Source: a bacterium (lineage in GTDB: Bacteria; UBA8248). Taken from it: a DNA stretch of 64,000 nucleotides. The stretch is taken from the NCBI GenBank assembly GCA_965203325.1, contig OZ241875.1:2912001-2976000 (forward strand), given 5' to 3'. The notes under the pieces were generated by a model that worked only from the letters and a program-made list of their open reading frames with translations, did no database searches and was not told the origin of the DNA. Within the stretch, counting starts at the first letter, position 1, and every line of letters starts with the position of its first letter. Made by a program: the position numbers and the translations under genes. Below, one piece after another: positions 1 to 17,366 of this stretch.

Positions 1-1651
1 GCTCTCCGCCGTCATGGCGCTCGTCGTCACCGGCGTCGGGACGCTCATCCACCTCTACTCGATGGGCTACATGCACGGCGACCGCGGCGTGGTGCGCTAT
101 TTCATCTACCTGAACCTTTTCTCGCTCTCGATGCTCACGCTCGTCCTGGGCGACAACTTCGTGGTCATGTTCGTGGGCTGGGAGGCGGTGGGTCTTTGCA
201 GCTACCTGCTCATCGGCTTCTGGTACGAGCGCAAGGCGGCGGCCGAAGCCGGCAAGAAGGCCTTCATCGTGAACCGGGTGGGTGATTTCTGCTTCCTGAT
301 AGCGCTTTTCTACATCTACAGCGTCGCGGGCTCGCTGGATTTCGCGGCCGTGTTCTCGAAGGCTCCCCAGTTGCTCGGCCCCGAAAGTGCGGCGGCGACG
401 ATCATCTGCCTGTTGCTCTTCGCGGGCGCCACGGGCAAGAGCGCGCAGATTCCGCTTTACGTCTGGCTGCCCGACGCGATGGAAGGCCCCACCCCGGTCA
501 GCGCCCTGATACACGCGGCCACCATGGTGACCGCAGGCGTCTATATGGTGGCGAGAGCGCACGTGCTCTTCGAGTTGTCTTCTACGGCGATGCTGGTGGT
601 GGGCGTCGTCGGCGCGCTCACGCTGTTGATGGCGGCTTCGATCGCCCTGGTCCAGACCGACATCAAGAAGGTGCTCGCCTACAGCACGGTGAGCCAACTC
701 GGCTATATGTTTCTCGCATGCGGCGTGGGGGCGTTCTCTGCGGCGATCTTCCACCTGATGACCCATGCGTTCTTCAAGGCGCTCCTGTTCCTGGGCGCGG
801 GGAGCGTGATTCACGCGCTGGACGGCGAGCAGGACATCCGCAGGATGGGCGGACTCCACGCGGCCCTTCCGCGAACGAGCAACACCTTCGTGGTCGGTGC
901 GCTGGCCATCGCGGGCGTATTTCCCTTCGCCGGTTTTTTCAGCAAGGACGCCATTCTCTACTCGGCCATGACAGCCGAGCGCGGCGGTATTCTCCTGTGG
1001 CTCGCCGGCGCGGCGGGCGCGCTCATGACCGTGTTCTACATGTTCAGGCTCTTGTTCCGCGTGTTCTTCGGCACCTGCAATCTGAGCCTGGAGGAGCAGC
1101 AGAAAGTCCATGAATCTCCCACGAACATGACGCTCCCGCTACAGGCGCTGGCGGCGCTCTCCATCGTCGGCGGCTGGGTGGGGATTCCCGTCATCACGGG
1201 TGCGAACGTATTCGGCGATTTTTTGGCGCCCGCTTTCGGCGGCCACGTGGAGGCGCACCACGAGGTGGTGTTCGAGATACTGATGATGGTCTTCTCGCTC
1301 GCCATCGCCTTCATCGGCATTTACGCGGCCTACAATCTCTACGTGCTGAAGAGCGACGGCGGGAGCGCGTACGCGAAACTCTGGCCGGGCATCCACCGGC
1401 TTTTGGTGAACAAGTATTACGTGGACGAGATATACGACGCCGCAATCGTCCAGCCGGTGAAGCGGGCGTCGATCTGGTGCTGGCGAGCGTTCGAGGACGG
1501 CCTGGTGGACGCGGCCGTGAACGGGGCGGGCTTTTTCGTGCGGTCCCTGGGCGGCGTCCTGAGGCGCCTCCAGACGGGCTACGTGAAGAGCTACGCCGTT
1601 TCGATGCTGGTCGGCGCGCTGGCGATCCTGCTGTATCTCACGGCGCGCTGA
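1..1651 (+). CDS. nuoL: NADH-quinone oxidoreductase subunit L (5'-truncated by window edge), operon 1
   Basis: Motifs GWEAVGLCSYLLIGFW, GKSAQIPLYVWLPDAMEGPTPVSALIHAATMV, KKVLAYSTVSQLG. Frame is open to the window start. Normal-length C-terminal helix with a single VDAAVNG. Confidence 0.97.
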   Translation, partial: LSAVMALVVTGVGTLIHLYSMGYMHGDRGVVRYFIYLNLFSLSMLTLVLGDNFVVMFVGWEAVGLCSYLLIGFWYERKAAAEAGKKAFIVNRVGDFCFLIALFYIYSVAGSLDFAAVFSKAPQLLGPESAAATIICLLLFAGATGKSAQIPLYVWLPDAMEGPTPVSALIHAATMVTAGVYMVARAHVLFELSSTAMLVVGVVGALTLLMAASIALVQTDIKKVLAYSTVSQLGYMFLACGVGAFSAAIFHLMTHAFFKALLFLGAGSVIHALDGEQDIRRMGGLHAALPRTSNTFVVGALAIAGVFPFAGFFSKDAILYSAMTAERGGILLWLAGAAGALMTVFYMFRLLFRVFFGTCNLSLEEQQKVHESPTNMTLPLQALAALSIVGGWVGIPVITGANVFGDFLAPAFGGHVEAHHEVVFEILMMVFSLAIAFIGIYAAYNLYVLKSDGGSAYAKLWPGIHRLLVNKYYVDEIYDAAIVQPVKRASIWCWRAFEDGLVDAAVNGAGFFVRSLGGVLRRLQTGYVKSYAVSMLVGALAILLYLTAR

Positions 1652-3246: not shown

Positions 3247-4725
3247 TTGGAAATCGTTCATCCCACCATCCATTGGGGATACCTGCTGCCGGTGATCCTG
3301 CCGGTGTGCGGGGCGGTGCTGGTGTTGATGTGGGACGCCTTTCTCGCCAAAGGGGAGCGCTCCGTCATCGTCATCATCACGCTGGTGACGCTGGCCGCCG
3401 CCCTGGGCGTGACGCTCGGCGCGCGCGCGCTGCCGGGGCTGGCCGCCTCGTTCGGCGGCATGTACCTCTTCGACGGGTTCACGCAGTTCCTCTACGTCGT
3501 CATCCTGTTCGCGAGCATCTTCGCGGTGCTCATCGCCGCGGCCCAGCGCGAGCTGGACGAAACGCCGGCGGGCGAGTATTTCGGCCTCATCCTCTTCGCT
3601 ACCTCGGGCATGATGCTCATGGCGGCGACGCGGAACCTCTTGATGATCTTCGTGGGTCTCGAGGTGTTCTCCCTGTCGCTCTATGTTCTGGCGGGGTATC
3701 TGCGCTCGCGTCCCGAGGGCAACGAGGCGTCGCTCAAATACTTTCTGCTCGGTTCGTTCGCCTCGGGCTTTCTGCTCTACGGCATGGCGCTCATTTATGG
3801 CGCCACCGGCTCGGTCGATCTGATCGAAATCGCCATCCGGCTTCACGAGAACCCCGCATCGCGCGGTGCCGCCTTCCTGATGGGTCTGGGCTTCATGGTG
3901 GTGGGCCTGGGCTTCAAGGTGGCCGCAGCACCTTTCTACATGTGGACGCCCGATGTTTACGAGGGCGCGCCCACCGCGGTGACGGCGTTCATGTCCGTGG
4001 GCCCCAAGGCGGCGGCTTTCGCCGCGTTCTTCCGGGTGTTTCTCTCCGCGGGCGACGCGGGCGGGAGTCTCGATTCGGTCTTGTGGGTCATGGCCGTCCT
4101 CACGATGAGCCTGGCGAACCTGGTCGCCATCTGGCAGTCCTGCGTGAAGCGGATGCTCGCCTATTCCAGCATCGCCCACGCCGGCTATCTCATGGTCGCG
4201 CTCGTGGCCTCGCGCACGAGCGCGGAACTAGCCACGAGCGGGTTTCTCTACTACATGCTCGTCTACGTTTTCATGAACATGGGCGCTTTCTGCGTGCTCA
4301 TCCTCATCTCGAACATGCGCGAGGACGGCGGTACGCAGTTGGACAACCTCGCGGGGCTGGCTTCTTTCCGGCCGGGCCTCGCGGCGGCGATGGCCGTGTT
4401 CATGGTGTCGCTCTCGGGGCTGCCGCCCACCGGGGGTTTCGTGGCGAAATTCCACGTGTTCAGCGCGGCGCTGAACGGCGGCTACGTCTGGCTGACCGTG
4501 ATCGCGGTGCTCAACAGCGTGGTGGCCGTGTATTATTACCTGCGTCTCGTCGTGGTGATGTACATGCGCGAACCGCAAGGCGCAGTGGCGAGCAGCGTTC
4601 CGCATCCGGGCTGGTCCTACGCCGTCGCAGCGCTCGTGCTCGCCGTCGCGAGCACCCTGCAACTGGGGATTTTCCCCTCCTCGGTGCTGGATTTCGCCCA
4701 TCGCTCCACAGTCTTTTTTAATTGA
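3247..4725 (+). CDS. nuoN: NADH-quinone oxidoreductase subunit N, operon 1
   Basis: EASLKYFLLG, GFKVAAAPFYMWTPDVYEGAPT, KRMLAYSSIAHAGY; TTG start 2 nt after the nuoM stop. Confidence 0.96.
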   Translation: MEIVHPTIHWGYLLPVILPVCGAVLVLMWDAFLAKGERSVIVIITLVTLAAALGVTLGARALPGLAASFGGMYLFDGFTQFLYVVILFASIFAVLIAAAQRELDETPAGEYFGLILFATSGMMLMAATRNLLMIFVGLEVFSLSLYVLAGYLRSRPEGNEASLKYFLLGSFASGFLLYGMALIYGATGSVDLIEIAIRLHENPASRGAAFLMGLGFMVVGLGFKVAAAPFYMWTPDVYEGAPTAVTAFMSVGPKAAAFAAFFRVFLSAGDAGGSLDSVLWVMAVLTMSLANLVAIWQSCVKRMLAYSSIAHAGYLMVALVASRTSAELATSGFLYYMLVYVFMNMGAFCVLILISNMREDGGTQLDNLAGLASFRPGLAAAMAVFMVSLSGLPPTGGFVAKFHVFSAALNGGYVWLTVIAVLNSVVAVYYYLRLVVVMYMREPQGAVASSVPHPGWSYAVAALVLAVASTLQLGIFPSSVLDFAHRSTVFFN

Positions 4726-4894: not shown

Positions 4895-5296
4895 ATGGAT
4901 CCGGTGGAGATTGTAGGCGCATTTTTCAGGGATTATCAGGCCATCAATCCCTACATCCCCATATTTCTGGTCACGCTCATGGCGGCCGCACTCGCCGCGA
5001 GCATTCTCATCTTCGCGCTGATCGTCCGCCCGCACAACCCGGACCCCGAGAAAAACTCCCCCTATGAGTGCGGCATGCCCCCGCTGATGGAGGCGCACGA
5101 GCGCTTCTCCATCCGCTTCTACCTGCTGGGCATACTGTTCCTGCTTTTCGACGTGGAAGCCTTGTTCCTGTTCCCCTGGGCGGTGCAATATGACGCCCTC
5201 GGGTTGTTCGGATTCATCGAGATGATGCTGTTCATCGCCATCCTGTTGGTGGGTTATTTCTACGCTTGGCGAAAAGGAGCGTTGGAGTGGGCATAG
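4895..5296 (+). CDS. nuoA: NADH-quinone oxidoreductase subunit A
   Basis: PYECG loop, [34 protein letters not shown] at 4895. Confidence 0.96.
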
Positions 5297-5763
5297 TCGA
5301 GGGTAAGTTCAGCGACAACTTCATCACGTCGAAGGTCGACAGCCTGGTCGCCTGGGCGAGGAAGAGCGCGCTCTGGCCGATGACCTTCGGCCTGGCGTGC
5401 TGCGCCATCGAAATGATGGCCTCGGGCGCGGCGCGCTACGATTTCGACCGTTTCGGCGTGATCTTCCGGGCCACGCCGCGCCAGTCCGACGTGATCATCG
5501 TGGCGGGCACCGTCACCCACAAGATGGGGGACGCGATTCGCAAGGTCTACGACCAGATGCCCGAGCCGCGCTGGGTGATCGCGATGGGCAACTGCGCCAC
5601 CTGCGGCGGCCCGTACGCGAACTATGCGGTGATGCAGGGAGTGGATGAAATCATCCCGGTGGACGTCTACGTTCCGGGTTGCCCGCCCAGGCCCGAATCC
5701 TTGATGTGGGGCGTCATGCAGCTTCAGAAAAAAATCGAACAGGAAAAATACATCCGCCGGTAA
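5287..5763 (+). CDS. nuoB: NADH-quinone oxidoreductase subunit B (N2 cluster)
   Basis: [27 protein letters not shown] start overlapping the nuoA end. Confidence 0.97.
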
Positions 5764-5789
5764 AAGCCTGCGGCGCACAAGGGAAGAAG

Positions 5790-6380
5790 ATGCCCGACGA
5801 AGTGGTGGAAAACAGCGAAGAAACGAGCGGCGCGCCGGATTCCGGCGAGACCGCCGAAGAGGTGAAGACCCCGCCCGGCGAGGACTTGAAGGAAGTGGTG
5901 GAATCGGCGTTTCCGGGCGCGGTGCTGGAGCAGAGCGCCTATGAGGATGATGAGGACGAGACGACGTTCGTCCTGGGCGTCGATTCGCTCGTCGCCGTCG
6001 CTACGCATCTGCGCGATCACGGCGATTCGCTCTTCAAGCTCCTCACCGATTTGACGGCGGCGCACTACCCGGAGGCCGAGAATCCCTTCGAGATGCTCTA
6101 TCAACTCTACAGCATCGAGCATAACCGCAGGCTGCGTCTCAAGGTGCGGATCAAGGAAGGCCAGGCGGTGCCCACGGTTTCGGGCGTGTGGACCAGCGCG
6201 GACTGGATGGAGCGTGAGGTGTACGATTTGTTCGGTATCGAATTCGAGGATCATCCGGATCTCAGGCGGATTCTTCTGCCCGACAACTGGGGCAGCCATC
6301 CGATGCGGAAGGACTATCCGCTCGAGGGCCGGGGAGAGCGGATTTACACCAAGCCGACGCGCAAGGAAATCGGCGATTAG
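5790..6380 (+). CDS. nuoC: NADH-quinone oxidoreductase subunit C (acidic N-terminal extension)
   Basis: WMEREVYDLFGIEFEDHPDLRRILL, HPMRKDYP. Confidence 0.95.
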   Translation: MPDEVVENSEETSGAPDSGETAEEVKTPPGEDLKEVVESAFPGAVLEQSAYEDDEDETTFVLGVDSLVAVATHLRDHGDSLFKLLTDLTAAHYPEAENPFEMLYQLYSIEHNRRLRLKVRIKEGQAVPTVSGVWTSADWMEREVYDLFGIEFEDHPDLRRILLPDNWGSHPMRKDYPLEGRGERIYTKPTRKEIGD

Positions 6381-6409
6381 AGCGGCATAGCTTTTGAGGG
6401 AATGAGGAA

Positions 6410-7552
6410 ATGGTCGGCGTAGCGAACGTGTCTCGCATCGAGCAGCAGAGCACCCTGCACGGGACCGAAGAACTCGTCATCAACATGGGTCCCCAGCACC
6501 CGAGCACGCATGGCGTGCTCCGCGTCATCCTGAAGCTCGACGGCGAGACGGTGAACGATCTCGACTGCGACATCGGCTACCTCCACCGCGGCACCGAGAA
6601 GATCGGCGAGAACATCACCTACACGATGTTCATCCCCTATACGGACCGCCTCGATTACATCGCGGCGCCCTCGAACAACCTCGCGTGGGTCACGGCGGTG
6701 GAGAAATTCTTCGACTGGGAGATCCCCATGCGGGCGCAGTACATCCGCTCGATGGTGGGGGAGCTCTCCCGCATCGCCAGCCATCTCCTCTGGCTCGCCA
6801 CCCACGCGCTCGACATCGGGGCAATGACGGTGTTCCTGTGGTGCTTCAGGGAGCGCGAGATGGTGCTCGACCTCTTCGAGACGGCCTTCGGCGGCCGCCT
6901 GACGGTGAACGCCTTCCGTCTCGGCGGTCTGCACGAGGACGTGCCGGACAAGTTCCTGCAGCTCACCCAGGAATTCGTCGACATCTTCCCGAGCAGAATC
7001 GACGACTACGAGACGCTGCTCACCAACAACCGCATCTGGCTGCAGAGAACGCGCGACGTGGGCATCATCTCCGCCGAGGACGCGATGGATCTGGGTCTCA
7101 CGGGGCCGATCATCCGGGGCAGCGGGGTGAGTTGGGACTTGAGGCGCGCCAAGCCATACGCGGCGTATCCCTATCTCGATTTCGTCGTGCCCGTCGGCGA
7201 GAACGGCGACATCTACGATCGCTATCTGGTGCGCATCGAGGAGTTGCGCCAGAGCACCCATATCATCCAGCAGTGCCTGGAGCAGCTTCCCGGCGGGCCG
7301 GTGACCTGCAAGACGCCCCGGACCATCAAGCCCCCCGAGGGCGAGATATACCACAGCATCGAGAACCCCAAGGGCGAGTTCGGCTTTTACATCGTGAGCG
7401 ATGGGACGACGACGCCCTATCGCGTCCGCATCCGCCCGCCATCGTTCATCAACCTGGGTGGTCTGAAGAAGCTGTGCGTCGGGCAGCTGGTCGCGGACGT
7501 GGTGGCCATCATCGGAAGCATCGACATCGTTTTGGGCGAATGTGATCGGTAA
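6410..7552 (+). CDS. nuoD: NADH-quinone oxidoreductase subunit D (short, 380 aa)
   Basis: [35 protein letters not shown]-terminal [12 protein letters not shown]; no NiFe-hydrogenase CxxC motifs. Confidence 0.97.
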
Positions 7553-7563
7553 GGAGCAGTTCG

Positions 7564-8535
7564 TTGGACATGGCGCTTGAAATCGCGGTCGCCGCGATAA
7601 AGATATTCATCGTGCTGAACGTGGTGCAGCTCGTGGTGGCGTATACGATCTACGTCGAGCGGAAGGTGATCGCCCACGTTCAGATGCGCATGGGGCCGAT
7701 GCGTGTGGGCTGGCACGGGCTTCTCCAGCCGATAGCGGACGGGCTGAAGCTGTTCTTCAAGGAAGACATCATACCCGACAAGGCGGACCGCATCGTGTTC
7801 GTGCTGGCGCCCGTGATGGTGCTGGTGCCCGCCTTCGTCGTCTACGCGGTGTTGCCCTTCAGCGCGACGTTCTACATCACGCAGATCAACATCGGGCTGT
7901 TCTTCATCCTGGCGATCAGTTCGCTCGGCGTATTCGGCATCGTCATGGCGGGCTGGGCCTCGAACAGCAAGTACTCGCTTCTGGGCGCGCTCAGGAGCGC
8001 GGCGCAGATGCTGAGCTACGAGATTTTCCTGGGCTTCTCCGTCATCGGGCCGCTGATGCTCGCGGGTTCCATGAACTTGCAAGAGATCGTGCACGCGCAG
8101 AGCGACGTGTGGTTCGTGTTCTATCAGCCCATCGCGTTCATCGTCTTCTTCATCGCGGCGATGGCGGAGACGAACCGCGCGCCCTTCGACCTGCCCGAGG
8201 CGGAAACCGAACTCGTGGCGGGCTTTCACACCGAATACAGCGGAATGAAGTTCGCGTTCTTTTTCCTGGCGGAATACGCCAACATGTTTGTCGTATCGAC
8301 GGTGGGCATCGTGCTGTTCTTCGGCGGATGGGATGGGCCGGATTTCATTCCGCTTCCCGGTTTCGTCTGGTACGTCCTGAAGCTCTCCGCATTCATGTTC
8401 GTGTTCATATGGCTGCGGGCGACGCTGCCGCGCTACCGCTACGATCAGCTGATGCGCGTGGGCTGGAAGTTCATGTTCCCGCTCGTGATGCTCAACATTT
8501 TCCTGACCGGATTCCTGAAGTACCTGTTCTTGTAA
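7564..8535 (+). CDS. nuoH: NADH-quinone oxidoreductase subunit H
   Basis: [52 protein letters not shown]. Confidence 0.97.
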
Positions 8536-8554
8536 CTCGCGGGAGAGACGCAGA

Positions 8555-9064
8555 GTGGAGCTATATTTCTTCTATATGTTCTCGGGCGGGATGATCATCG
8601 CCTCCTTGCTGATGATCACGCGCGCGAACGTGATTCACGCGGCCTTGTTGCTGGTGCTGACGTTCTTCTTCCTCGCGGGCATCTTCGTTCTGGCGGGGGC
8701 GGAGTTCCTGGCGGCGGTGCAGATTCTGCTCTACGCGGGCGGCATCATGGTGCTCTACCTGTTCTCGATCATGCTGATGAACGTGGAGGTGGCCGTTCGG
8801 ATGCGGCAATGGCACCGTCAGGGCGTCATGGTGTTCGTGGCGGCCGCCCTGCTGGGTCTGGAAATATGGGCCGTGCTGGCGGGTGTGGATTTCCCGGCGG
8901 CGAAGCAGTGGGAGTGGTCACTGGGCGCCACGCCGGGCAACGTCGAAGCGCTGGGCGCGGTCTTGTATACGAAATTCCTGTTCCCCTTCGAGGTGGCCTC
9001 CGTCCTCCTGCTGGCCGCGATGATCGGCGCCATCGTCCTGGCGAAGCGTACGATAGAGAGATAG
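8555..9064 (+). CDS. nuoJ: NADH-quinone oxidoreductase subunit J
   Basis: [40 protein letters not shown]. Confidence 0.95.
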
Positions 9065-9083
9065 AGGGGAGAGAGTACCCGCG

Positions 9084-9386
9084 ATGATACCGATGACTCA
9101 TTTTCTTATCCTGGGCGCCATATTGTTCCTCATCGGCGCGATGGGCGTTCTGATGCGCCGCAACGCCATCATCATCCTGTTGTCCATCGAGTTGATGCTC
9201 AACGCCGTGAACGTGACCTTCGTGGGCTTCTCGCGCCACCTGGCGGACATGACGGGCCAGGTGTTCGCCATCTTCGTCATCACCGTGGCGGCGTGCGAGG
9301 CGGCCGTGGGACTTGCGATTCTCATCGCGCTCAACCGCGACCGCACGATGGTCAACGTGGACGAAGTCAACCTTTTGAAGTGGTAG
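9084..9386 (+). CDS. nuoK: NADH-quinone oxidoreductase subunit K
   Basis: [31 protein letters not shown]. Confidence 0.96.
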
Positions 9387-9393
9387 GGGAATC

Positions 9394-11415
9394 ATGATCG
9401 AACTGGCTTGGCTCATTCCCGTTTTTCCGGTGATCGGGGTTCTGATCAACGGATTGTTCGGAAGGCACGTGGGCGAGAGGGCGGGCCCCATCGCTTCCGT
9501 CATGGCGGGCTTGTCGCTGCTCGTGGTGCTGGGCATCGCTGTTCAGATGATCTTCGGCGCGGGCGGCAGCCATACTGTGCCGCTCTGGACGTGGGTGGAA
9601 GCGGGGAGCTTCAGCGCCTCGATGAGCTTCCTCATCGACCCGCTGAGCACCATCATGCTGCTCGTGGTGGCGGGCGTGGGTTTTCTGGTGCACGTATACG
9701 CCGTGGGCTACATGCACGGAGACCCGGGCTATCCGCGCTTTTTCACCTATCTCAACCTGTTCATGCTCTCGATGTTCCTGCTGGTGCTGGGGGACAACTA
9801 TCTCGTGATGTTCGTCGGCTGGGAGGGCGTGGGCCTTTGCAGCTACCTGCTCATCGGCTTCTGGTACGAGAAGCAATCCGCGTCCGACGCGGGCAAAAAG
9901 GCGTTCATCGTCAACCGCATCGGCGACGCGGGCTTTCTGCTCGGCATGTTCCTCATCTGGACGCTGACGGGCAGCCTCACCTACACGGAAGTGTTCAAGG
10001 AGGCGCCCGAGATGAGCGCGGCGGCGGCATCGGCCGTCGGTCTTCTGCTGTTCGTCGGCGCCGTCGGCAAAAGCGCGCAGATTCCGCTCTACGTCTGGCT
10101 GCCCGACGCCATGGAAGGTCCGACCCCCGTCAGCGCCCTCATCCACGCCGCCACCATGGTGACGGCAGGCGTCTACATGGTCGCGCGCACGAGCCCCATC
10201 TACGTCATGGGGCCGGACGCGATGAGCGTCATCGCCATCGTCGGCGCGCTCACGGGCCTGTTCGCCGCGAGCATCGGCCTGGTGCAAAACGACATCAAGC
10301 GCGTGCTCGCCTACAGCACGGTCAGCCAGCTCGGCTTCATGTTCATGGCGCTGGGCGTGGGCGCATTCACGGCCGCCATCTTCCATCTGATGACCCACGC
10401 CTTCTTCAAGGGCCTGCTCTTTCTTGGCAGCGGGAGCGTCATCCACGCGCTTCACCATGCGCCGGAAGAGCAGCAGCAGGACATGCGCTACATGGGCGGT
10501 TTGAAGGACAAGATGCCCGTGACGTACTGGACGTTCCTGATAGGCGCTATCGCCATCGCGGGCGTGCCGCCGCTGGCGGGCTTCTGGAGCAAGGACGAGA
10601 TTCTGGCGAACGCCTTCTTCACGGGGCACTACACGGTCTGGATCATGGGCACCGTCGCGGCCTTCATGACGGCCTTCTACATGTTCCGGCTCATCTTCAT
10701 GACGTTTCACGGCGAGATGCGCGTCGATCATCACGCCCGCGAACACATACACGAATCGCCCGCCACGATGACGGTTCCGCTCATCATCCTGGCGGTCCTG
10801 AGCGTCATCGGCGGCGTGATTCCCGGCTTCCCGCCCGAGGCCGGCTGGATACACCGCTTCCTGGCGCCCTCGCTGGCGAAGATGCCGGCCGGCGGCCACG
10901 CCACGGAGCAGGGCGTGCACCTGATGAACGCCGCGGCCGGCGGCGGGCACAGCGGGCCGGCGGTGGTGTTCCTGATCATACTGGCCATCGCCGTCGCCGT
11001 GGGCGGCATCGCCCTGGCGTGGTACATGTACGTCAAGGACACGGAGGCGCCGCGGCGCTTGTACGAGCGCTTTACGGGCTTATATCGTCTGCTTCTGGAA
11101 AAATACTATATCGACGAGATTTACCAAGCCTGCATCGTCGAGCCGGTCTACAAGCTCATGCGCGGCTTGTGGACTTTCGATGCGAAGGTGGTGGACGGGG
11201 CGGTGAACGGCAGTTCGCTCATCACCGTCGTGTCGAGCCGCTTCTCGGGAATTTTCGACCTTCGGACGGTGGACGGGGCGGTGAACGGCACGGCGAGCTT
11301 CATCCGCTTTTTCTCCCAGGTATTCAAATACCTGCAATCCGGAATGGTTCAGAATTATCTTTTCGTGATGCTGTTGGGCATCTTCGTGATGCTGAGCGCC
11401 TACCTTTTCCGCTGA
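9394..11415 (+). CDS. nuoL: NADH-quinone oxidoreductase subunit L, operon 2, with 26-aa duplication in the amphipathic helix
   Basis: All NuoL motifs present; VDGAVNG occurs twice, 26 aa apart, near the C-terminus. Confidence 0.97.
   Translation: MIELAWLIPVFPVIGVLINGLFGRHVGERAGPIASVMAGLSLLVVLGIAVQMIFGAGGSHTVPLWTWVEAGSFSASMSFLIDPLSTIMLLVVAGVGFLVHVYAVGYMHGDPGYPRFFTYLNLFMLSMFLLVLGDNYLVMFVGWEGVGLCSYLLIGFWYEKQSASDAGKKAFIVNRIGDAGFLLGMFLIWTLTGSLTYTEVFKEAPEMSAAAASAVGLLLFVGAVGKSAQIPLYVWLPDAMEGPTPVSALIHAATMVTAGVYMVARTSPIYVMGPDAMSVIAIVGALTGLFAASIGLVQNDIKRVLAYSTVSQLGFMFMALGVGAFTAAIFHLMTHAFFKGLLFLGSGSVIHALHHAPEEQQQDMRYMGGLKDKMPVTYWTFLIGAIAIAGVPPLAGFWSKDEILANAFFTGHYTVWIMGTVAAFMTAFYMFRLIFMTFHGEMRVDHHAREHIHESPATMTVPLIILAVLSVIGGVIPGFPPEAGWIHRFLAPSLAKMPAGGHATEQGVHLMNAAAGGGHSGPAVVFLIILAIAVAVGGIALAWYMYVKDTEAPRRLYERFTGLYRLLLEKYYIDEIYQACIVEPVYKLMRGLWTFDAKVVDGAVNGSSLITVVSSRFSGIFDLRTVDGAVNGTASFIRFFSQVFKYLQSGMVQNYLFVMLLGIFVMLSAYLFR
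11190..11290 (+). repeat. 23-bp identical direct repeat (11190-11212 and 11268-11290), 78-bp period, inside nuoL
   Basis: ggtggacggggcggtgaacggca occurs twice. Confidence 0.95.
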
Positions 11416-11438
11416 TGCGATAAGGTTTTGGAGGAACT

Positions 11439-12986
11439 ATGAGCAACATGCCGCTTCTTACGCTGATCACCTTCCTGCCCGCGGTGGGTGCGGTGATTAT
11501 CATGCTCTTCATGAAGAAAGAGCAGACGAAAGCCATCAAGGGTTTCGCCACGGCGGTGGCGGTCTTGGACTTCCTGATTTCGCTTCCCCTCTGGTTCAAT
11601 TTCGATCAGTCCGAAGCCGGATTCCAGTTCGTGGAGAAGGTGAGCTGGATACCCACCATCGGGGTGAGCTATTTCGTCGGCATCGACGGGATCAGCGTGC
11701 TGCTCGTCCTGCTCACGACGCTCACGATGATCGTGGGGGTCGTGTGCTCGTTCACCGCCATCGAGGAGCGCGAAAAGGAATACTACGTCTGCCTCCTTCT
11801 GCTGGCGACCGGTATGCTGGGCACCTTCATCGCGCTCGACATCTTCCTCTTCTACGTGTTCTTCGAGGTCACCCTGGTGCCGATGTATTTCCTCATCGGC
11901 GTGTGGGGCGGGCCGAGGAAGCTCTACGCGGCGATCAAGTTCTTCCTCTATACGCTGTTCGGCAGCGTGTTGATGCTGTTGGGAATTCTGGCGTTCTACT
12001 TCGCCAACCTGAAAATGGGCACCGGAACCCTTACGTTCGACCTGGTGGAGTTGTACGGCGTGGGGCCGAAGATACCGCTTTCGCTCCAGATATGGATATT
12101 CCTGGCGTTCTTCATCGGCTTCGCCATCAAGGTCCCCATGTTCCCCTTCCACACCTGGCTGCCGGACGCGCACGTGGAAGCCCCGACGGCGGGCAGCGTG
12201 ATCCTGGCGGGCATTCTCCTGAAAATGGGAACCTACGGATTCGTGCGCTTCGCCCTGCCCCTGCTGCCCCAGGCGAGCCAGGTTTTCGTGCCCTTCATGG
12301 TGCTGCTCTCCATCATCGGGATCATTTACGGGGCGCTGGTGGCCATGGCGCAAACGGACATCAAGAAACTGGTGGCCTATTCCTCGGTGAGTCACTTGGG
12401 CTTCGTGATGCTGGGTATTTTCGCCTTAAACGAGCAGGGCGTCCTCGGCGGACAGCTTCAGATGATCAACCACGGAATCAGCACGGGCGCCTTGTTCCTT
12501 CTGGTGGGCGTCGTTTACGAGAGGCGTCATACGCGCCTCATCTCCGATTACGGCGGCCTCTCGAAAATCGTGCCCGTCTATACGGTGCTCTTCGCCATCA
12601 CGATGCTGAGCAGCATCGGGCTTCCGGGGCTGAACGGTTTCGTGGGCGAGTTCCTGATCCTCATCGGCGCGTTCAAGAAGAGCTACGTCTACGCCGCGTT
12701 CGCCGTCATCGGCATCGTTCTGGGAGCGGCGTACATGCTCTGGCTCTTCCAGCGGGTGTTCTTCGGGAATCTGGATAATCCCGAGAACGAGAAGCTCACC
12801 GACTGCAACGCGCGCGAGGTTCTCTATCTGATGCCGCTGATCATCCTGATGTTCTGGATCGGCCTGTATCCCAAGCCGTTCCTGGGGAGGATGGAGGCGA
12901 GCGTGAAGAAAGTCGTGAAGATGGTGAACGTGGCGGAGGCGCCGCAAAAGGCCGCGCTCGGCAAAATGACGAAGCTCGAGAAGTAA
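11439..12986 (+). CDS. nuoM: NADH-quinone oxidoreductase subunit M, operon 2
   Basis: FYVFFEVTLVPMY, AIKVPMFPFHTWLPDAHVEAP, KKLVAYSSVSHLG. Confidence 0.97.
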   Translation: MSNMPLLTLITFLPAVGAVIIMLFMKKEQTKAIKGFATAVAVLDFLISLPLWFNFDQSEAGFQFVEKVSWIPTIGVSYFVGIDGISVLLVLLTTLTMIVGVVCSFTAIEEREKEYYVCLLLLATGMLGTFIALDIFLFYVFFEVTLVPMYFLIGVWGGPRKLYAAIKFFLYTLFGSVLMLLGILAFYFANLKMGTGTLTFDLVELYGVGPKIPLSLQIWIFLAFFIGFAIKVPMFPFHTWLPDAHVEAPTAGSVILAGILLKMGTYGFVRFALPLLPQASQVFVPFMVLLSIIGIIYGALVAMAQTDIKKLVAYSSVSHLGFVMLGIFALNEQGVLGGQLQMINHGISTGALFLLVGVVYERRHTRLISDYGGLSKIVPVYTVLFAITMLSSIGLPGLNGFVGEFLILIGAFKKSYVYAAFAVIGIVLGAAYMLWLFQRVFFGNLDNPENEKLTDCNAREVLYLMPLIILMFWIGLYPKPFLGRMEASVKKVVKMVNVAEAPQKAALGKMTKLEK

Positions 12987-13021
12987 ACAGAGATTTCGCT
13001 TGATTTGATGGAGTCTTTCTG

Positions 13022-14524
13022 ATGGAAGTGGTGATTCCCGACATCGCCTTGTCCCTGGCGCTTCCCGAGATAGGGCTGGCCATTCTCGTCTGCGCGGTTC
13101 TGATACTCGACCTGTTCGTGTCGATAGAGAACAAATCGCGCGTGGGCGTCGTGGCGTTCGTGGGGGTCGTTATCTTGGGGCTCATCGCCTTCGGGCAATG
13201 GGGCGAGGGCGCGAGAACGACGTTCAACGATTTCTACGTGGTCGACAACCTGAGCGTGTTCGTGAAGGTGTGCGTGCTGCTGTGTACGGCCATCTCCATC
13301 CTGTTGCTGCTCCAATACGCCAAGGTCGAGAAGATCAACTACGGCGAGCTCTACGCCATGCTGCTCTTCTCGGTGTTCGGCATGCTGGTGATGGCGTCGG
13401 GCAACGATCTGATTACGATCTATCTGGGTCTGGAGACCATGAGCATCAGCATCTACGTGCTCGTGGCCTTCATGCGGCATGACCCTCTGAGCAGGGAGGC
13501 GGGCCTCAAGTATTTCCTCATGGGCGCTTTCGCCTCGGGCGTTCTCCTCTACGGCATGGCGCTGACCTACGGGTTCACCGGGACGACCTCGATTCGCGGG
13601 ATCGCGGCGGCGTTCTCGGGCGAAGGCGGCGCCGCCATCGCGCAGAACCCGGTGATGATTTTCGGCCTTATTCTCCTGGTCGCAGGCTTCGGGTTCAAGC
13701 TGGCGCTGTCGCCGTTCCACATGTGGCTGCCCGACGCCTACACGGGCGCGCCGACGCCGATAACGGGCTTCATGTCCGTGGCCGTCAAGTTCGCGACCGT
13801 GGCCGCCCTGATGCGGATATTCTTCGTGGCGCTTCCGGCCATGGCGGACAGGTGGAACGCCCTCTTGTGGGCGCTCACGGCGTTCACGCTGGTGTGGGGG
13901 AACGTGGCGGCCATCGCCCAGACGAGCCTGAAGCGCATGCTGGCGTATTCGAGCATCGGGCACGCGGGCTACGTGCTGATGGGCGTGGTGGCCACCATGA
14001 GCGTCGTGGACGGCAAGGTGACGTTCACCGACATCGGCATCAGCGCGGTGGCGTTCTATCTGCTCGCCTATCTGTTCACGAACCTGGGAGCCTTCGGCAT
14101 GCTGATTCTCGTTTGCCGCGACGGCTACCGGGGCGACAACATCGAGGACTGGAAGGGCATCGGCCAGGCGCACCCCTGGGCGGGGATGGCCTTCGTGGTG
14201 TTCCTGCTCTCGCTCGGCGGCATCCCGCCGACGGCCGGCTTCGTCGGCAAGCTCTACCTGTTCGCCGCGGCGGTGCAGAACGAGTACTACTGGCTCGCCG
14301 TGATCGGCCTCGTGATGAGCGCGGTCTCGATGTACTATTACGGGCGCATCATCATGGTGATGTACATGGAGAACCGGGGCGAGAGCCAGGAGGTGATGAG
14401 TTTCTCGAGCGCGCCCTCGCTCTTCTTCGCACTGGTGGTGCTCGTGGTGGCGACGCTGCTGCTGGGCATCTTCCCGGGCAGCTTCCTGGACGCGGCGAAG
14501 GGCACCGTCGCCGGGTTCATCTAG
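13022..14524 (+). CDS. nuoN: NADH-quinone oxidoreductase subunit N, operon 2
   Basis: EAGLKYFLMG, GFKLALSPFHMWLPDAYTGAPT, KRMLAYSSIGHAGY. Confidence 0.96.
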   Translation: MEVVIPDIALSLALPEIGLAILVCAVLILDLFVSIENKSRVGVVAFVGVVILGLIAFGQWGEGARTTFNDFYVVDNLSVFVKVCVLLCTAISILLLLQYAKVEKINYGELYAMLLFSVFGMLVMASGNDLITIYLGLETMSISIYVLVAFMRHDPLSREAGLKYFLMGAFASGVLLYGMALTYGFTGTTSIRGIAAAFSGEGGAAIAQNPVMIFGLILLVAGFGFKLALSPFHMWLPDAYTGAPTPITGFMSVAVKFATVAALMRIFFVALPAMADRWNALLWALTAFTLVWGNVAAIAQTSLKRMLAYSSIGHAGYVLMGVVATMSVVDGKVTFTDIGISAVAFYLLAYLFTNLGAFGMLILVCRDGYRGDNIEDWKGIGQAHPWAGMAFVVFLLSLGGIPPTAGFVGKLYLFAAAVQNEYYWLAVIGLVMSAVSMYYYGRIIMVMYMENRGESQEVMSFSSAPSLFFALVVLVVATLLLGIFPGSFLDAAKGTVAGFI

Positions 14525-14690
14525 CAATCACACGCGACATCTGAAGCAGTACCCCTGACTCTCATGCTTGAGCGGGGCGTGGAAGCGCGTTTTTGCGGAA
14601 TAGGTGCGCTTGTATGGAGTGGCGCACACGGCGACGCTCTTGCCGGTTATGATTCCGGGCGGCACCGAGGAAGAGATGATCACCCTCACC

Positions 14691-14786
14691 GGCTGCGGGA
14701 CGCGGGCGAAGCCGGGGAGGTTTTCCGGATGAAGGAAGGCGGAGTCGCCGGGCTTGTTCGGAAGTGAAGAAAAGCAATTTATGCAA
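14691..14786 (+). repeat. ~96-bp direct repeat, copy 1 (left border of accessory island)
   Basis: ggctgcgggacgcgggcgaagcc...gggaggttttccggatgaa...tcgccgggcttgttcggaagtgaagaaaagcaattt..tgcaa is near-identical to 17265-17361. Confidence 0.93.
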
Positions 14787-14807
14787 GTAACTATATAGAA
14801 AAATATA

Positions 14808-14828
14808 GGGAACTGCGTACGTGACTTG
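14808..14828 (+). mobile_element. Possible IS1595-family terminal inverted repeat remnant
   Basis: gggaactgcgtacgtgacttg resembles IS1595-type ends as I recall them, and sits where similarity to repeat copy 2 stops. Confidence 0.35.
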
Positions 14829-14846
14829 ACGGAACTATCGGGATTC

Positions 14847-14896
14847 ACCGATCCGGACATGCGCGTAATCAAGATATTCAGCAAGTCCGGATCGGT
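14847..14896. repeat. Perfect 12-bp inverted repeat (hairpin) downstream of the peptidase gene
   Basis: accgatccggac-N26-gtccggatcggt. Confidence 0.85.
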
Positions 14897-14913
14897 TGAA
14901 TTTGATGGTGATT

Positions 14914-15837
14914 TCACTTTTTCTTTAAAGACGGGTGGGACTCATACACTCTGATAACAGCATTATGTTCGATGTAATAGGCTGGATTTCCGTCTTTGTC
15001 CCATTGCTCCTTTACCCTTCGTGCACCGGTGACAACCAATTTCGCACGTATTTTAGTCCCGTCGCCAAGAGTGTATTCATTGAATTTCTCGCTTGAATCT
15101 TCTATTGGTATTTCGTATCCGGTCACATTTTTCCCATCTGGCATTGTGATTTGAACTTCAGGGTATTCAATGTCGTCCAAGTTGCTCACTTTCTTTTCTC
15201 CTACGTTAGGGTGGAAGAGGGAGCATAGTTTTTCAATATCTTGAATGCCTGCATCCCTGCGTAAATAAGGTTGAAGTTGCTCCGGTTTAATATCACTAAT
15301 TTTGGTGTTCCCTTCTGTACGAATTTTCTTGACTGCACGGGCTAGCTGCGGCATCAAAGAATTGACTATCCTTTCAGCTTCAATATATTTCTTTTCGACC
15401 TCATCGTTTTTGTTCAATATGTGCTTGTTTTGGGCGAAATAATTTTTAGTGAGCTTAAGATGATGTTCAGGTTGATTTTGAAACCATACGGCCAGCCCTT
15501 CTTCCAGAAAAGTGACATCTTCTATTTTTACCGGGTCGATAAGATGCACGCATTCATGAGCGATTTGCCATGCTGCTTGGTCACAGTAAGCATTGTCCCA
15601 AGCGGTTCTGGAAATATAAATATTAACGGGGCAATTTCCCATGTAATGATGGTTCTCTGGGAAACATATATATGGGCCATCATCACTAATGGCATTCGGT
15701 TTATTTTCAGGAGCCCTAGATATAGAATCTAAATCGAACCTTGTATCTCGCGGCCCGAAAATCCTTTGAATTTTGCTCATATATCGCTGATATTGTTTTT
15801 GTAGGAACATTTCAAATTTTGAATGTTGTGTTTGCAT
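14914..15837 (-). CDS. HExxH zinc-metallopeptidase-like (ImmA/IrrE-like) protein fused to a small conserved beta-rich domain
   Basis: WQIAHECVHL...FLEEGLAVWF; C-terminal FNEYTLGDGTKIRAKLVV...DKDGNPAYYI; AT-rich; start uncertain (15888/15837/15780). Confidence 0.7.
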   Translation of the reverse strand: MQTQHSKFEMFLQKQYQRYMSKIQRIFGPRDTRFDLDSISRAPENKPNAISDDGPYICFPENHHYMGNCPVNIYISRTAWDNAYCDQAAWQIAHECVHLIDPVKIEDVTFLEEGLAVWFQNQPEHHLKLTKNYFAQNKHILNKNDEVEKKYIEAERIVNSLMPQLARAVKKIRTEGNTKISDIKPEQLQPYLRRDAGIQDIEKLCSLFHPNVGEKKVSNLDDIEYPEVQITMPDGKNVTGYEIPIEDSSEKFNEYTLGDGTKIRAKLVVTGARRVKEQWDKDGNPAYYIEHNAVIRVYESHPSLKKK

Positions 15838-15903
15838 TACTCGGAACCGTCCTGATACTCCCGTTAATTGGGGCGGGCATTGTAGCACCTAAGGTGTATG
15901 CGG

Positions 15904-15938
15904 AAAACAAAAAGCCCTTGGCCAAAGCCGGGGGTCTT
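15904..15938 (-). terminator. Intrinsic terminator-like hairpin upstream of the peptidase gene
   Basis: Minus strand AAGACCCCCGGCTTTGGCCAAGGGCTTTTTGTTTT. Confidence 0.55.
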
Positions 15939-16120
15939 GTGTTGTAGCCAATAGAGGTGCCGATTCCATCGGGGTTCGTCTCCGAACGCGGCCTGCCCAC
16001 TGAAAGGACTGTGCAGGTGTACGGGGCCGACATGGCCATTCACGATGTCTGGGACAGGGGCTAATTTCGTTAATCCCTTTCATGGCTTCCCCCACTTTCC
16101 TGTAGATTTGGTGACACCAC

Positions 16121-16155
16121 AAAAAAGACGGGGGCCAAAAAGTCCTCCGTCTTTG
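16121..16155 (-). terminator. Intrinsic terminator after the YHYH and 64-aa genes
   Basis: Minus strand CAAAGACGGAGG-loop-CCCCCGTCTTTTTT. Confidence 0.65.
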
Positions 16156-16220
16156 TCTGGTCTGGCTTCTAAATCCACCGCCGCGAATTCGATTTCCCGA
16201 CCTCCACCGTTCTTGGAATA

Positions 16221-16415
16221 CTATAATTTAGAGGATTTTACCCCATCCTTAAAACCGAGATCATAGATGCAAAAGGGACATTTGCCTTGGGCTATCTGGA
16301 GGCCCATTGGATGATCCTTTAGTTCATCGATCTTTTCCTCGAGGACCCTTATGTCCTCCGGCATATTATCTCGGAATTTAACTTGATGTTTCACACAATA
16401 ATCAGCAAATCCCAT
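16221..16415 (-). CDS. Small hypothetical protein, possible Zn-binding (CxxH...CPFC)
   Basis: 64-aa ORF with GAGGA Shine-Dalgarno; directly follows the YHYH gene. Confidence 0.6.
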   Translation of the reverse strand: MGFADYCVKHQVKFRDNMPEDIRVLEEKIDELKDHPMGLQIAQGKCPFCIYDLGFKDGVKSSKL

Positions 16416-16444
16416 TTACGTTTCCTCTTTTCTCGACAAGCGGC

Positions 16445-16750
16445 TCAGAACCGCAGCTTCCATAAAGTTCCGATCTGGTCAGTTTGGGCCTGAACGGCAG
16501 AGAGGGGGTTCTTCTGTTTTTTCAGCATCCAGCCGATGAGGCCCACGACCACCACGACCCCCAGGACGATGAGCAACGTATCCTTCGAATTGCCGTCATC
16601 GCCACCTCTGTGGCAATGGTATCCACCGGTCGCTGTTTCGTTATGACATCCAGCCCTATTCAGACCTCCTCCGTGAGCACCGGCATGATAGGATGTGACG
16701 ACTAGAAAACACGCTACGAATAAGATGGTGATACAGCGCTTTGCAATCAT
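16445..16750 (-). CDS. YHYH-domain (HxGGLxxxGCH...YHCH) exported/membrane-anchored small protein
   Basis: Signal peptide, AHGGGLNRAGCHNETATGGYHCH, C-terminal TM helix. Confidence 0.85.
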   Translation of the reverse strand: MIAKRCITILFVACFLVVTSYHAGAHGGGLNRAGCHNETATGGYHCHRGGDDGNSKDTLLIVLGVVVVVGLIGWMLKKQKNPLSAVQAQTDQIGTLWKLRF

Positions 16751-16870
16751 GGTTGGGTCCTCTGATTTTGGGTGTGCAAATTATTCCTCGTGCGTCAAAT
16801 AGTGGCATTACTTATGAAAAATCCCTCCCGGTCTATATCAAAGGTGACTTAGTGAGTAGAAATAGTTAGC

Positions 16871-17070: not shown

Positions 17071-17264
17071 ATTCGCATCATCGCCGTATGAGCCGGTATT
17101 TGGAATGAAGGGAGTTTGTCCGAACAGGACGGATCCCGAATTACAGGGATCCCTTACACATTCCTATACCCGTGTTTATGTGTCGCATGAGCACCGTGGC
17201 ATGCAGGCGATTGGGTGTCAAGACGGACGAGCCAGACGTTTGTGAAGTGACGGCCGGCTTCGTG

Positions 17265-17361: not shown

Positions 17362-17366
17362 ATAAT

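What the first reader, a model, noticed from the sequence alone, without database searches (positions are those of the whole stretch)
9394..12986. '2M-type' elongated NuoL in an operon with only one nuoM: candidate hybrid or homo-2M complex I
Seen: NuoL of operon 2 has FDAKVVDGAVNG...FDLRTVDGAVNG, an exact 26-aa (78-bp) period in the C-terminal amphipathic helix, while NuoL of operon 1 has a single VDAAVNG. Known: ~26-aa insertions in this helix mark 2M complexes, where the longer helix spans a second NuoM and may add a proton-pumping module; those operons normally encode two nuoM genes. Here the order is nuoL-nuoM-nuoN with no room for a second M, but another nuoM lies in the adjacent operon (1688-3244). 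Inference: the long NuoL may incorporate NuoM1 in trans or two copies of NuoM2, allowing mix-and-match proton stoichiometry.
Basis: partly seen in the sequence, partly recalled or inferred. Interest (0 to 1): 0.82.

Follow-up and report, generated by a model that had tools for sequence, protein, structure and literature searches.

The report
Lengthened NuoL strap, one nuoM
The strap helix of one complex I pump subunit is lengthened by exactly one pump-width although only one middle-pump gene is present, a widespread and still unexplained mismatch that may mean the same pump protein is used twice.

Summary
NuoL of the second nuo operon (9394-11415) carries a 26-residue tandem duplication in its lateral helix (aa 595-620 and 621-646). 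The operon order is nuoL-nuoM-nuoN, and the genome has only two true nuoM genes, both in the window.

The same type (no nuoEFG, long helix, one nuoM) occurs in 48 of 51 genomes of the window's phylum group. It also occurs in 116 of 201 sampled Acidobacteriota and 29 of 81 sampled Methylomirabilota. None of 40 acidobacterial operons inspected has a second nuoM. The NuoM proteins of these operons form one clade.

Two relatives (2.1 Mb, 95% complete) have only three antiporter-like genes in the whole genome. Borrowing NuoM1 from the neighbouring operon therefore cannot be the general explanation.

My best reading, at about 0.4, is an L-M-M-N arm with two copies of the single NuoM, the helix acting as a ruler. 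A three-pump complex whose longer helix does something else is nearly as likely.

The mismatch was already noted in one sentence for 'Ca. Manganitrophaceae' (Yu 2022). Earlier notes of this scan saw it on other DNA. No tool here could settle the stoichiometry.

The parts
2..1651 (+). nuoL1, 3' part (cut by the window start); canonical lateral helix with one VDAAVNG
   Evidence: the full gene is 634 aa in the genome
1688..3244 (+). nuoM1 of the canonical 14-gene operon 1
   Evidence: TIGR01972 634 bits; groups with canonical NuoM in the trees
3247..4725 (+). nuoN1
   Evidence: TIGR01770 427 bits
4880..5296 (+). nuoA2, first gene of operon 2 (start codon not settled)
   Evidence: NF005839 and related NuoA models
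5266..5763 (+). nuoB2
   Evidence: NF005012 253 bits
5679..6380 (+). nuoC2 (longest ORF; the true start is probably further downstream, since the family match begins at aa 101)
   Evidence: TIGR01961 140 bits
6410..7552 (+). nuoD2
   Evidence: TIGR01962 512 bits
7564..8535 (+). nuoH2; it follows nuoD2 directly, so there is no nuoE, F or G
   Evidence: NF004741 402 bits; ORF list
8555..9064 (+). nuoJ2; it starts 19 bp after nuoH2, so there is no nuoI in the operon
   Evidence: NF005164; the only other nuoI above cut-off besides that of operon 1 is an orphan gene at genome 2427479-2428033
9084..9386 (+). nuoK2
   Evidence: NF004322 and NF004320
9394..11415 (+). nuoL2, 673 aa, with a long lateral helix
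   Evidence: NF005141 765 bits; key residues E144, D178, K229, H334, H338, K342, K399 and D400 (E. coli numbering) are kept; the AF2 model best matches solved NuoL/ND5/NdhF chains
11176..11253 (+). lateral-helix unit 1 (aa 595-620, FDAKVVDGAVNG...)
11254..11331 (+). lateral-helix unit 2 (aa 621-646, FDLRTVDGAVNG...); in the 51-row alignment it aligns with the single unit of canonical NuoL
11439..12986 (+). nuoM2, the only nuoM of operon 2; member of the NuoM clade that goes with long-helix NuoL
   Evidence: TIGR01972 645 bits; trees; E144, K234, K265 and E407 are kept
13022..14524 (+). nuoN2, last gene of operon 2
   Evidence: TIGR01770 440 bits against 154 bits for the NuoM model

Best explanation
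Shown: operon 2 (nuoA B C D H J K L M N, without E, F, G or I) belongs to a coherent, widespread subfamily of complex-I-like enzymes. In this subfamily the NuoL lateral helix carries a tandem duplicate of one 26-residue unit. That unit holds the [F/W]Dxx(V/I)(V/I)DGxVN block, which aligns with the kink of the E. coli helix that touches NuoM. The operon's single NuoM belongs to a clade of its own.

Inferred: 26 helical residues span about 39 A (26 x 1.5 A), which I recall to be roughly the width of one antiporter-like subunit. The extra unit repeats the NuoM-docking block. The assembled membrane arm is therefore most likely L-M-M-N, with the one nuoM product present twice. The helix and its terminal TM16 anchor would act as a ruler that fixes the number of M modules. 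Such a complex would move one more proton per two electrons than a canonical complex.

The enzyme lacks the NADH-input genes, and the record titles of its closest relatives name Nitrospinota MAGs. I therefore infer that it links the quinone pool to a low-potential carrier such as ferredoxin, possibly running in reverse. Its NuoI is supplied by the orphan gene elsewhere in the genome.
For: 1. The duplication is real and in register with canonical NuoL.
2. Both units are kept. Mean pairwise identity among 17 NuoL2-clade sequences is 0.65 for unit 1 and 0.60 for unit 2, against 0.67 for the whole protein and 0.33 for a variable loop. There are no indels in aa 590-650.
3. The state is stable. Full-length long tails occur in 48 of 51 genomes of the window's phylum group, 116 of 201 sampled Acidobacteriota and 29 of 81 sampled Methylomirabilota.
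4. True two-nuoM operons (H J K L M M N; L140-L144) have a NuoL extended by the same amount.
5. E. coli residues P564-N566 are described as the helix kink that contacts NuoM (Belevich 2011, PMC3274701, passages read). They align with the repeated block.
6. No other antiporter-like gene exists in G005 or G006, which have L, M and N only.
7. NuoM of long-helix, one-nuoM operons is one clade: 66 of 66 in a FastTree tree and 24 of 24 in an IQ-TREE tree, support 99 in both.
8. The pump residues of NuoM2 and NuoL2 are intact.
Against: No result here shows two NuoM per complex. The AF2 monomer model of NuoL2 has pLDDT 40-54 across aa 599-653 and a 7-residue non-helical break (615-621) at the unit boundary. 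The NuoL1 control is modelled as one helix, with block-mean pLDDT of 58-86 over aa 531-634. A continuous longer helix is therefore not demonstrated. None of the 66 long-helix, one-nuoM operons I collected has a two-gene version, and the two-gene operons I found are a distant lineage on long branches. There is thus no observed transition from one gene to two genes inside this subfamily. No solved structure has the duplicated unit. The width of a pump subunit is recalled, not measured here.
Confidence: 0.4

Rival explanations
1. Three-pump complex. The enzyme has one NuoM, and the 26 extra residues serve another purpose. TM16 might dock further along the arm, over NuoK, J, A or H. The unit might fold back as a hairpin or loop. 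It might bridge a lipid gap or a small unrecognised subunit.
For: Gene content is 1 L: 1 M: 1 N in all 66 operons of this type that I collected. The AF2 model puts a non-helical break at 615-621 with low confidence. In E. coli, 6-residue insertions at some helix positions are tolerated (Belevich 2011, passages read). An earlier scan note reports unit numbers that only loosely follow nuoM gene numbers in another NuoL-like family (e1-7429242; unchecked).
Against: The insert is exactly one copy of the unit that holds the NuoM-contact block, and both copies stay conserved. It has the same length as in true two-nuoM operons. No conserved extra gene follows nuoN2: the ORFs at 14528-16750 have no Pfam family and no match in 23 relatives' loci.
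Confidence: 0.33
2. Hybrid complex. The long NuoL2 recruits NuoM1 from the adjacent canonical operon as its second M.
For: The two operons are adjacent in 13 of 15 close relatives' loci and in more distant members of the phylum group. Of 113 long-helix Acidobacteriota genomes, 83 have two nuoM. Operon 2 already depends on a trans-encoded NuoI.
Against: G005 and G006 have the long-helix operon and no other antiporter-like gene. In Acidobacteriota, 27 of 113 long-helix genomes have one nuoM; in G099, G128 and G165 the hit contig is nearly the whole genome. In the five genomes inspected (G051-G055) each further nuoM sits in its own L-M-N cluster. NuoM2-type and NuoM1-type proteins are separate clades.
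Confidence: 0.07
3. A fourth module that is not NuoM. A second NuoN, or an unrelated membrane protein encoded elsewhere, fills the extra space.
For: Nothing tested here distinguishes a second M from a second N. G099, G128 and G165 also carry an Mrp-like cluster elsewhere in the genome.
Against: Known four-pump cassettes duplicate M (passages of PMC6606698, PMC9040806 and PMC12342949 read; operons L140-L144). G005 and G006 have no Mrp genes. The repeated block aligns with the NuoM-contact site.
Confidence: 0.1
4. Relic or transition state. The insertion is left over from a lost second nuoM, or precedes its gain, and has no function now. Yu et al. 2022 raise this option.
For: Yu et al. 2022 (PMC9040806, passages read) name 'evolutionary transition' as one possibility.
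Against: The state is conserved across a whole phylum group and more than 100 acidobacterial species. Both units evolve about as slowly as the rest of the protein, and there are no indels.
Confidence: 0.03

Closest known systems
2M complex I (Chadwick, Hemp, Fischer, Orphan 2018, ISME J 12:2668; the paper was not readable here and is known only through citing papers PMC6606698, PMC9040806, PMC12342949 and PMC7419157)
   Same: An insertion of about 26 aa in the NuoL lateral helix. No nuoEFG, as in the Nitrospira type. The proposed role is a higher proton stoichiometry for reverse electron flow to ferredoxin.
   Different: The defining second nuoM gene is missing here. The true two-nuoM operons I found in Acidobacteriota (L140-L144) are a distant lineage in both the NuoL and NuoM trees.
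NuoL of Complex_I_1 and Complex_I_2 of 'Ca. Manganitrophaceae' (Yu et al. 2022, mBio, PMC9040806; passages read)
   Same: A 26-aa helix insertion in a cluster with a single nuoM. The authors call it curious and leave it unexplained.
   Different: Those clusters are described as canonical in gene content and order, whereas operon 2 lacks nuoE, F, G and I. They belong to another phylum. I could not fetch their sequences, so homology of the insertion was not tested.
Canonical NuoL / Nqo12 / ND5 / NdhF of solved complex I and NDH-1 (for example 8qby_L, 3rko, 4he8, 6hum_F)
   Same: The fold and pump residues match. Foldseek gives E 3e-46 and TM 0.82 to 8qby_L; the residues are checked.
   Different: All 11 PDB sequences that match the long-tail profile at E 0.01 or better hold one copy of the unit. 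In the four of the five printed alignments that match both repeats, both repeats of the profile hit the same stretch of the chain.
Earlier notes of this scan on other genomes (e1-5477383, e1-2117301, e1-7429242)
   Same: A 26-27 aa tandem duplication in a NuoL-type lateral helix. In two of the three notes the number of units does not match the number of nuoM genes.
   Different: The organisms and enzyme families differ (an Asgard hydrogenase-like complex, a true 2M operon, and a DabA-linked NuoL). These are unchecked AI notes.

Membership tests
NuoL (NADH-quinone oxidoreductase subunit L) | Match to the curated family model above its cut-off | tested here: met
   NF005141 scores 764.7 bits (cut-off 556) and TIGR01974 scores 762.3 bits (cut-off 407.5)
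NuoL (NADH-quinone oxidoreductase subunit L) | Conserved charged residues of the proton path (E. coli E144, D178, K229, H334, H338, K342, K399, D400; the residue list is recalled) | tested here: met
   All eight are identical in NuoL2 and NuoL1 when aligned with E. coli NuoL
NuoL (NADH-quinone oxidoreductase subunit L) | A C-terminal lateral helix followed by a last transmembrane helix | tested here: met
   The AF2 model has helices 570-614, 622-647 and 652-672. The tail aligns with canonical tails
2M complex I | Insertion of about 26 residues in the NuoL lateral helix | tested here: met
   The helix is 25-26 aa longer than in NuoL1 and in the canonical homologues of the alignment. True two-nuoM operons have the same extra length
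2M complex I | A second nuoM gene in the cassette | tested here: not met
   The order is L-M-N with gaps of 23 and 35 bp. There are only two nuoM in the genome, and the other belongs to operon 1
2M complex I | Four antiporter-like subunits in the assembled enzyme | not testable with these tools
   The complex tool takes at most 1000 residues, and the L-M-M-N arm alone is about 2200
Helix-extended NuoL with a single nuoM (as noted by Yu et al. 2022) | A 26-aa helix insertion together with one nuoM in the cluster | tested here: met
Helix-extended NuoL with a single nuoM (as noted by Yu et al. 2022) | Homology of the insertion and of NuoM with the Manganitrophaceae clusters | not tested

The most novel reading that the evidence does not exclude
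The NuoL lateral helix is a molecular ruler. One 78-bp tandem duplication of its NuoM-docking unit would be enough to turn a three-pump arm into a four-pump arm, by recruiting a second copy of the same NuoM polypeptide and without any new gene. On this reading a large, unrecognised share of environmental bacteria run a five-proton complex I encoded by a normal-looking L-M-N operon. In the samples here that share is more than half of Acidobacteriota, a third of Methylomirabilota and nearly all of the window's phylum group. The two-gene '2M' operons would be the later, subfunctionalised form of the same idea.
Probability: 0.38. Interest if true: 0.85.

Novelty: new member of a known kind. Interest (0 to 1): 0.58.

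Why it matters
If the single NuoM is used twice, proton stoichiometry cannot be read from gene counts. The energy budgets assumed for many soil and marine bacteria would then need revision, including nitrite oxidisers and nitrite-dependent methane oxidisers that must push electrons uphill to ferredoxin. It would also give a one-mutation route from three to four pumps.

If the complex has only three pumps, the accepted logic that a 26-residue helix insertion proves a fourth subunit is unsafe. Published '2M' inferences would then need structural checks.

Either answer is reachable with one purified complex. The genomes with a sole long-helix operon (G005, G006, G099, G128, G165) point to the cleanest kind of test organism.

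Tried and rejected
- Tandem Repeats Finder on nuoL2 finds no 78-bp repeat. The duplication is too old (44 of 78 bases identical), so it was shown at the protein level instead.
- Complex prediction with two copies of NuoM2 (aa 1-498, 37-row alignment) gave 'no answer', score 0.00 in both runs. This is no evidence either way. The full L-M-M-N arm exceeds the 1000-residue limit.
- AF2 monomer models of NuoL2 and of the NuoL1 control do not settle whether the longer helix is continuous. NuoL2 has pLDDT 40-54 over the duplicated part.
- Chadwick et al. 2018 could not be read by DOI or PMC id and was not found by a title search. Whether it already lists one-nuoM cases is therefore unknown to me.
- Full-text searches for the mismatch found only Yu et al. 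2022.
- The NuoL trees split the long-helix, one-nuoM proteins into 4-6 groups, which I first read as repeated origins. An AU test does not reject a single clade (p 0.287), so the number of origins stays open.
- The downstream ORFs as candidate extra subunits were rejected. They have no Pfam family and no match in 23 relatives' loci.
- Nitrospira 2M sequences for a direct comparison could not be fetched with the remaining caps.
- A slow first script for the shuffle test timed out and was rerun in faster form.
Full report
**What is in the window**

The first 14.5 kb hold the end of one nuo operon and the whole of a second. Operon 1 ends with nuoL1 (2-1651, cut by the window start), nuoM1 (1688-3244) and nuoN1 (3247-4725). 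ORFs in the canonical A-to-K order lie directly upstream in the genome; I did not scan them against family models, apart from nuoI and nuoL. Operon 2 is nuoA, B, C, D, H, J, K, L, M, N (4880-14524). NCBIfam names every gene.

In operon 2, nuoH follows nuoD directly and nuoJ starts 19 bp after nuoH. The operon therefore has no nuoE, F, G or I. The genome holds one further nuoI above the family cut-off. It is an orphan 184-aa gene at genome position 2427479-2428033, next to a thioredoxin-reductase-like flavoprotein gene. A whole-genome search with the NuoM model finds only two genes above the cut-off, both in the window. It also finds an Mrp-like pair near 890 kb.

**The observation**

NuoL2 (673 aa) contains FDAKVVDGAVNG at residue 595 and FDLRTVDGAVNG at residue 621. 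The two 26-residue units (window 11176-11253 and 11254-11331) share 10 of 26 residues.

The best 26-residue self-diagonal in the last 140 residues scores 43, at offset 26. Shuffled tails give 16.5 +/- 5.3 with a maximum of 40, so 0 of 1000 reach the observed score. The NuoL1 control scores 14. At the DNA level 44 of 78 bases agree, and Tandem Repeats Finder reports no repeat there. The duplication is therefore old.

NuoL1 has one copy of the block. The distance from the YYxDExY motif to the QxG motif is 52 residues in NuoL1 and in the canonical homologues where both motifs were found. It is 77-78 in NuoL2. In a 51-sequence alignment the extra 26 residues appear as a clean insertion.

**What the repeated unit is**

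Long tails from four groups were aligned on their own: the window's phylum group, a Methylomirabilis MAG, and two acidobacterial groups. They are almost colinear, with only single-residue gaps. Two copies of [F/W]Dxx(V/I)(V/I)DG lie 26-27 residues apart, and D56, D61, G62, V64, N65, D82, D87 and G88 are invariant. All carry the same kind of duplication.

In E. coli the helix kink at P564-N566 is reported to be the place closest to NuoM (Belevich et al. 2011, PMC3274701, passages read). The E. coli stretch D563-N570 aligns with the repeated block. The unit that was duplicated is therefore the one that carries the NuoM contact. This is an inference from an alignment and a paper, not from a structure of this protein.

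A profile of the long tails matches 11 distinct PDB sequences at E 0.01 or better. In four of the five alignments printed, both repeats of the profile hit the same stretch of the chain; the fifth matched only the second repeat. No solved NuoL, ND5 or NdhF has the duplicated unit.

**Distribution in close relatives and the phylum group**

Of 80 loci related to NuoL2, 15 are close relatives (76-98% identity). Their record titles, where they name a phylum, name Nitrospinota MAGs. Thirteen of the 15 show operon 1 followed directly by operon 2. All 13 full-length NuoL2-type proteins have two copies of the block, followed by one nuoM and then nuoN.

A search of the 51 genomes that the tool groups as the window's phylum finds a full-length long tail (51-100% identity) in 48. 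The three without are G011 (67% complete), G020 (79% complete) and G009.

Among 17 diverse sequences of this clade, mean pairwise identity is 0.65 for unit 1 and 0.60 for unit 2. It is 0.67 for the whole protein and 0.33 for a variable loop. There is no indel in residues 590-650. The insertion is under selection and is not a relic.

**Distribution in other phyla**

In a sample of 201 Acidobacteriota genomes, 116 have such a tail at E of 1e-20 or better. In 81 Methylomirabilota genomes, 29 have one at E of 1e-25 or better. Among 1.84 billion cluster representatives, 223 match the tail profile at E of 1e-30 or better and 4516 at 1e-10 or better. The weaker matches probably include canonical tails.

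I fetched 40 of the acidobacterial operons, picked down the ranking from contigs with enough flank and leaving out the genomes flagged as unpublished. None has a second nuoM. Thirty-six show L-M-N, three show L-M with nothing recognised after it, and one is cut by its contig end.

I inspected the upstream regions of 19 of these operons. Seventeen show A/B C D H (I) J K, and none of the 17 has nuoE, F or G. Four lack nuoI between H and J.

**The test of the 'NuoM1 in trans' idea**

Genomes G005 and G006 are 2.1 Mb, 95% complete, and in 2 and 6 contigs. They carry the long-helix operon (A B C D H J K L M N, with VDGAVNG twice). They have only three matches to the antiporter-like family in the whole genome, namely that L, M and N.

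In the acidobacterial sample I crossed the two searches by hand:

| Genome class | n | 0 nuoM | 1 nuoM | 2 nuoM | 3 nuoM |
|---|---|---|---|---|---|
| Unambiguous long tail | 113 | 0 | 27 | 83 | 3 |
| No long tail | 85 | 20 | 52 | 8 | 5 |

Three further genomes were ambiguous.

These tallies include three genomes flagged as unpublished (G079, G207, G104). Without them, the long-tail total of 116 of 201 becomes 114 of 198. The long-tail row becomes 26, 83 and 2 of 111, and the no-tail row becomes 20, 51, 8 and 5 of 84.

In G099, G128 and G165 the hit contig is nearly the whole genome. The only nuo L-M-N set is the long-helix one, with an Mrp-like cluster elsewhere. Where a second nuoM exists and was inspected (G051-G055), it sits in its own L-M-N cluster.

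Borrowing a paralogous NuoM is therefore not required for this type of enzyme. These genomes are related to one another, so the counts are not independent trials. A single nuoM in an incomplete MAG is weak evidence. The closed or nearly closed genomes carry the argument.

**True two-nuoM operons**

The five acidobacterial genomes with three nuoM and no long-tail hit hold operons H J K L M M N. Their NuoL is 682-702 aa. It has the same extra length but degenerate copies of the block.

In the NuoL tree these five sit on a long separate branch. In the NuoM trees the first M and the second M each form their own long branch. Within what I could sample, the two-gene operons and the one-gene long-helix operons are different lineages that share the same helix length.

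**A coherent subfamily**

In a FastTree tree of 140 NuoM proteins, all 66 that follow a long-helix NuoL in a one-nuoM operon lie on one side of a single branch (support 99). In an IQ-TREE quick tree of 65 proteins the same holds for all 24 (support 99). They are separate from the NuoM1 type of the same genomes.

The NuoL trees need 4-6 changes of the label. An AU test does not reject one clade (log-likelihood difference 24.4, p 0.287). The label comes from NuoL and the tree from NuoM, but the two genes are linked. The result therefore shows that the operon type is one lineage. It does not show independent co-evolution.

NuoM2, NuoM1 and the NuoM of G005 keep E144, K234, K265 and E407. NuoL2 and NuoL1 keep eight path residues (the residue lists are recalled).

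**How it most likely works**

Shown:
- A conserved duplication of one unit, which holds the block that aligns with the NuoM contact.
- The same length as in two-gene operons.
- A dedicated NuoM clade.
- No other antiporter-like gene in some carriers.

Inferred:
- Twenty-six helical residues add about 39 A (26 x 1.5 A), which I recall to be roughly one pump width. The arm is then L-M-M-N, with the single NuoM present twice and the helix acting as a ruler. I put this at about 0.4.
- The main rival, at about 0.33, is a three-pump enzyme in which the extra unit folds back, or in which TM16 docks further along the arm.
- The hybrid with NuoM1 is at about 0.07, another fourth module at about 0.1, and a functionless relic at about 0.03.
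- The absence of nuoEFG fits the role proposed in the literature for such enzymes: quinol-to-ferredoxin electron flow driven by the proton gradient (passages of PMC3578206 and PMC6606698 read). Nothing here tests that role.

**What the models say**

The AF2 model of NuoL2 (mean pLDDT 83) has helices 570-614, 622-647 and 652-672. It has a 7-residue break at the unit boundary and pLDDT 40-54 over residues 599-653. The NuoL1 control (mean pLDDT 87) is modelled as a single helix from 556 to 633, with block-mean pLDDT of 58-86 over residues 531-634.

The insertion is mostly helical in the model, but the confidence is too low to decide whether it is continuous. The best structural matches of the model are NuoL, ND5 and NdhF chains.

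**Comparison with what is known**

The 2M complex I of Chadwick et al. 2018 is defined by the helix insertion together with a second nuoM. The first feature is met and the second is not, so I do not file operon 2 as a 2M complex. I could not read that paper.

Yu et al. 2022 (PMC9040806, passages read) report the same mismatch in Complex_I_1 and _2 of 'Ca. Manganitrophaceae'. They say these are either already able to take extra pumps or are in evolutionary transition. Four full-text searches found no other treatment.

Earlier notes of this scan report the same kind of duplication on other DNA. One of them calls the mismatch common and unexplained.

The window's case is therefore a new member of a kind that is already noted but unexplained. 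Four results appear to go beyond the passages I read:
- the prevalence across three phyla;
- the single NuoM clade;
- the consistent lack of nuoEFG;
- carriers with only three antiporter-like genes.

**Verdict**

The trans-NuoM1 reading is unlikely. The two-copy reading is the best of several unproven ones. Interest is moderate to high, because one stoichiometry measurement would settle a question that bears on many environmental bacteria.

Noticed in passing
window 7564-9064, and genome position 2427479-2428033 (L010:7479-8033): Operon 2 has no nuoI between nuoH and nuoJ. A stand-alone nuoI (184 aa) lies 485 kb away, next to a thioredoxin-reductase-like flavoprotein gene (318 aa, Pyr_redox_2), which may be a ferredoxin-linked partner. 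G005, G006, G099, G128 and G165 likewise have a single nuoI-like gene away from the operon.
   Followed up: partly
window 14528-18600: Directly after nuoN2 the G+C content drops from about 0.61 to 0.49-0.51. ORFs there (14528-14917, 14914-15888, 16445-16750, 17918-18640) have no Pfam family. Three of them (14528-14917, 14914-15888, 16445-16750) were searched and have no match in 23 relatives' loci. A tRNA gene lies at 19773-19845. This may be a strain-specific island.
   Followed up: partly
window 22642-27798: A 1718-aa ORF joins a DEAD/Helicase_C module (aa 306-630) to a UvrD-type helicase module (aa 1100-1570).
   Followed up: no
L063 (Methylomirabilis MAG); G118, G130 and G186 (Acidobacteriota): The long-helix operon and a second nuo operon are often neighbours in other phyla too. 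They are in tandem in L063. In G118, G130 and G186 two nuoM lie 4-7 kb apart on opposite strands of one contig.
   Followed up: no
L104, L134, L138 (Acidobacteriota): In three long-helix operons no nuoN was recognised after nuoM within the fetched 12 kb.
   Followed up: no
P0007, P0052, P0013, P0154 (cluster representatives): Some tails match the two-unit profile in 2-4 separate stretches, which may mean three or more helix units.
   Followed up: no
L018 and L067: The nuoM of a canonical operon is split into two ORFs (104 + 419 aa in L018, 220 + 290 aa in L067). This is probably a frameshift or an assembly error, not a second nuoM.
   Followed up: no
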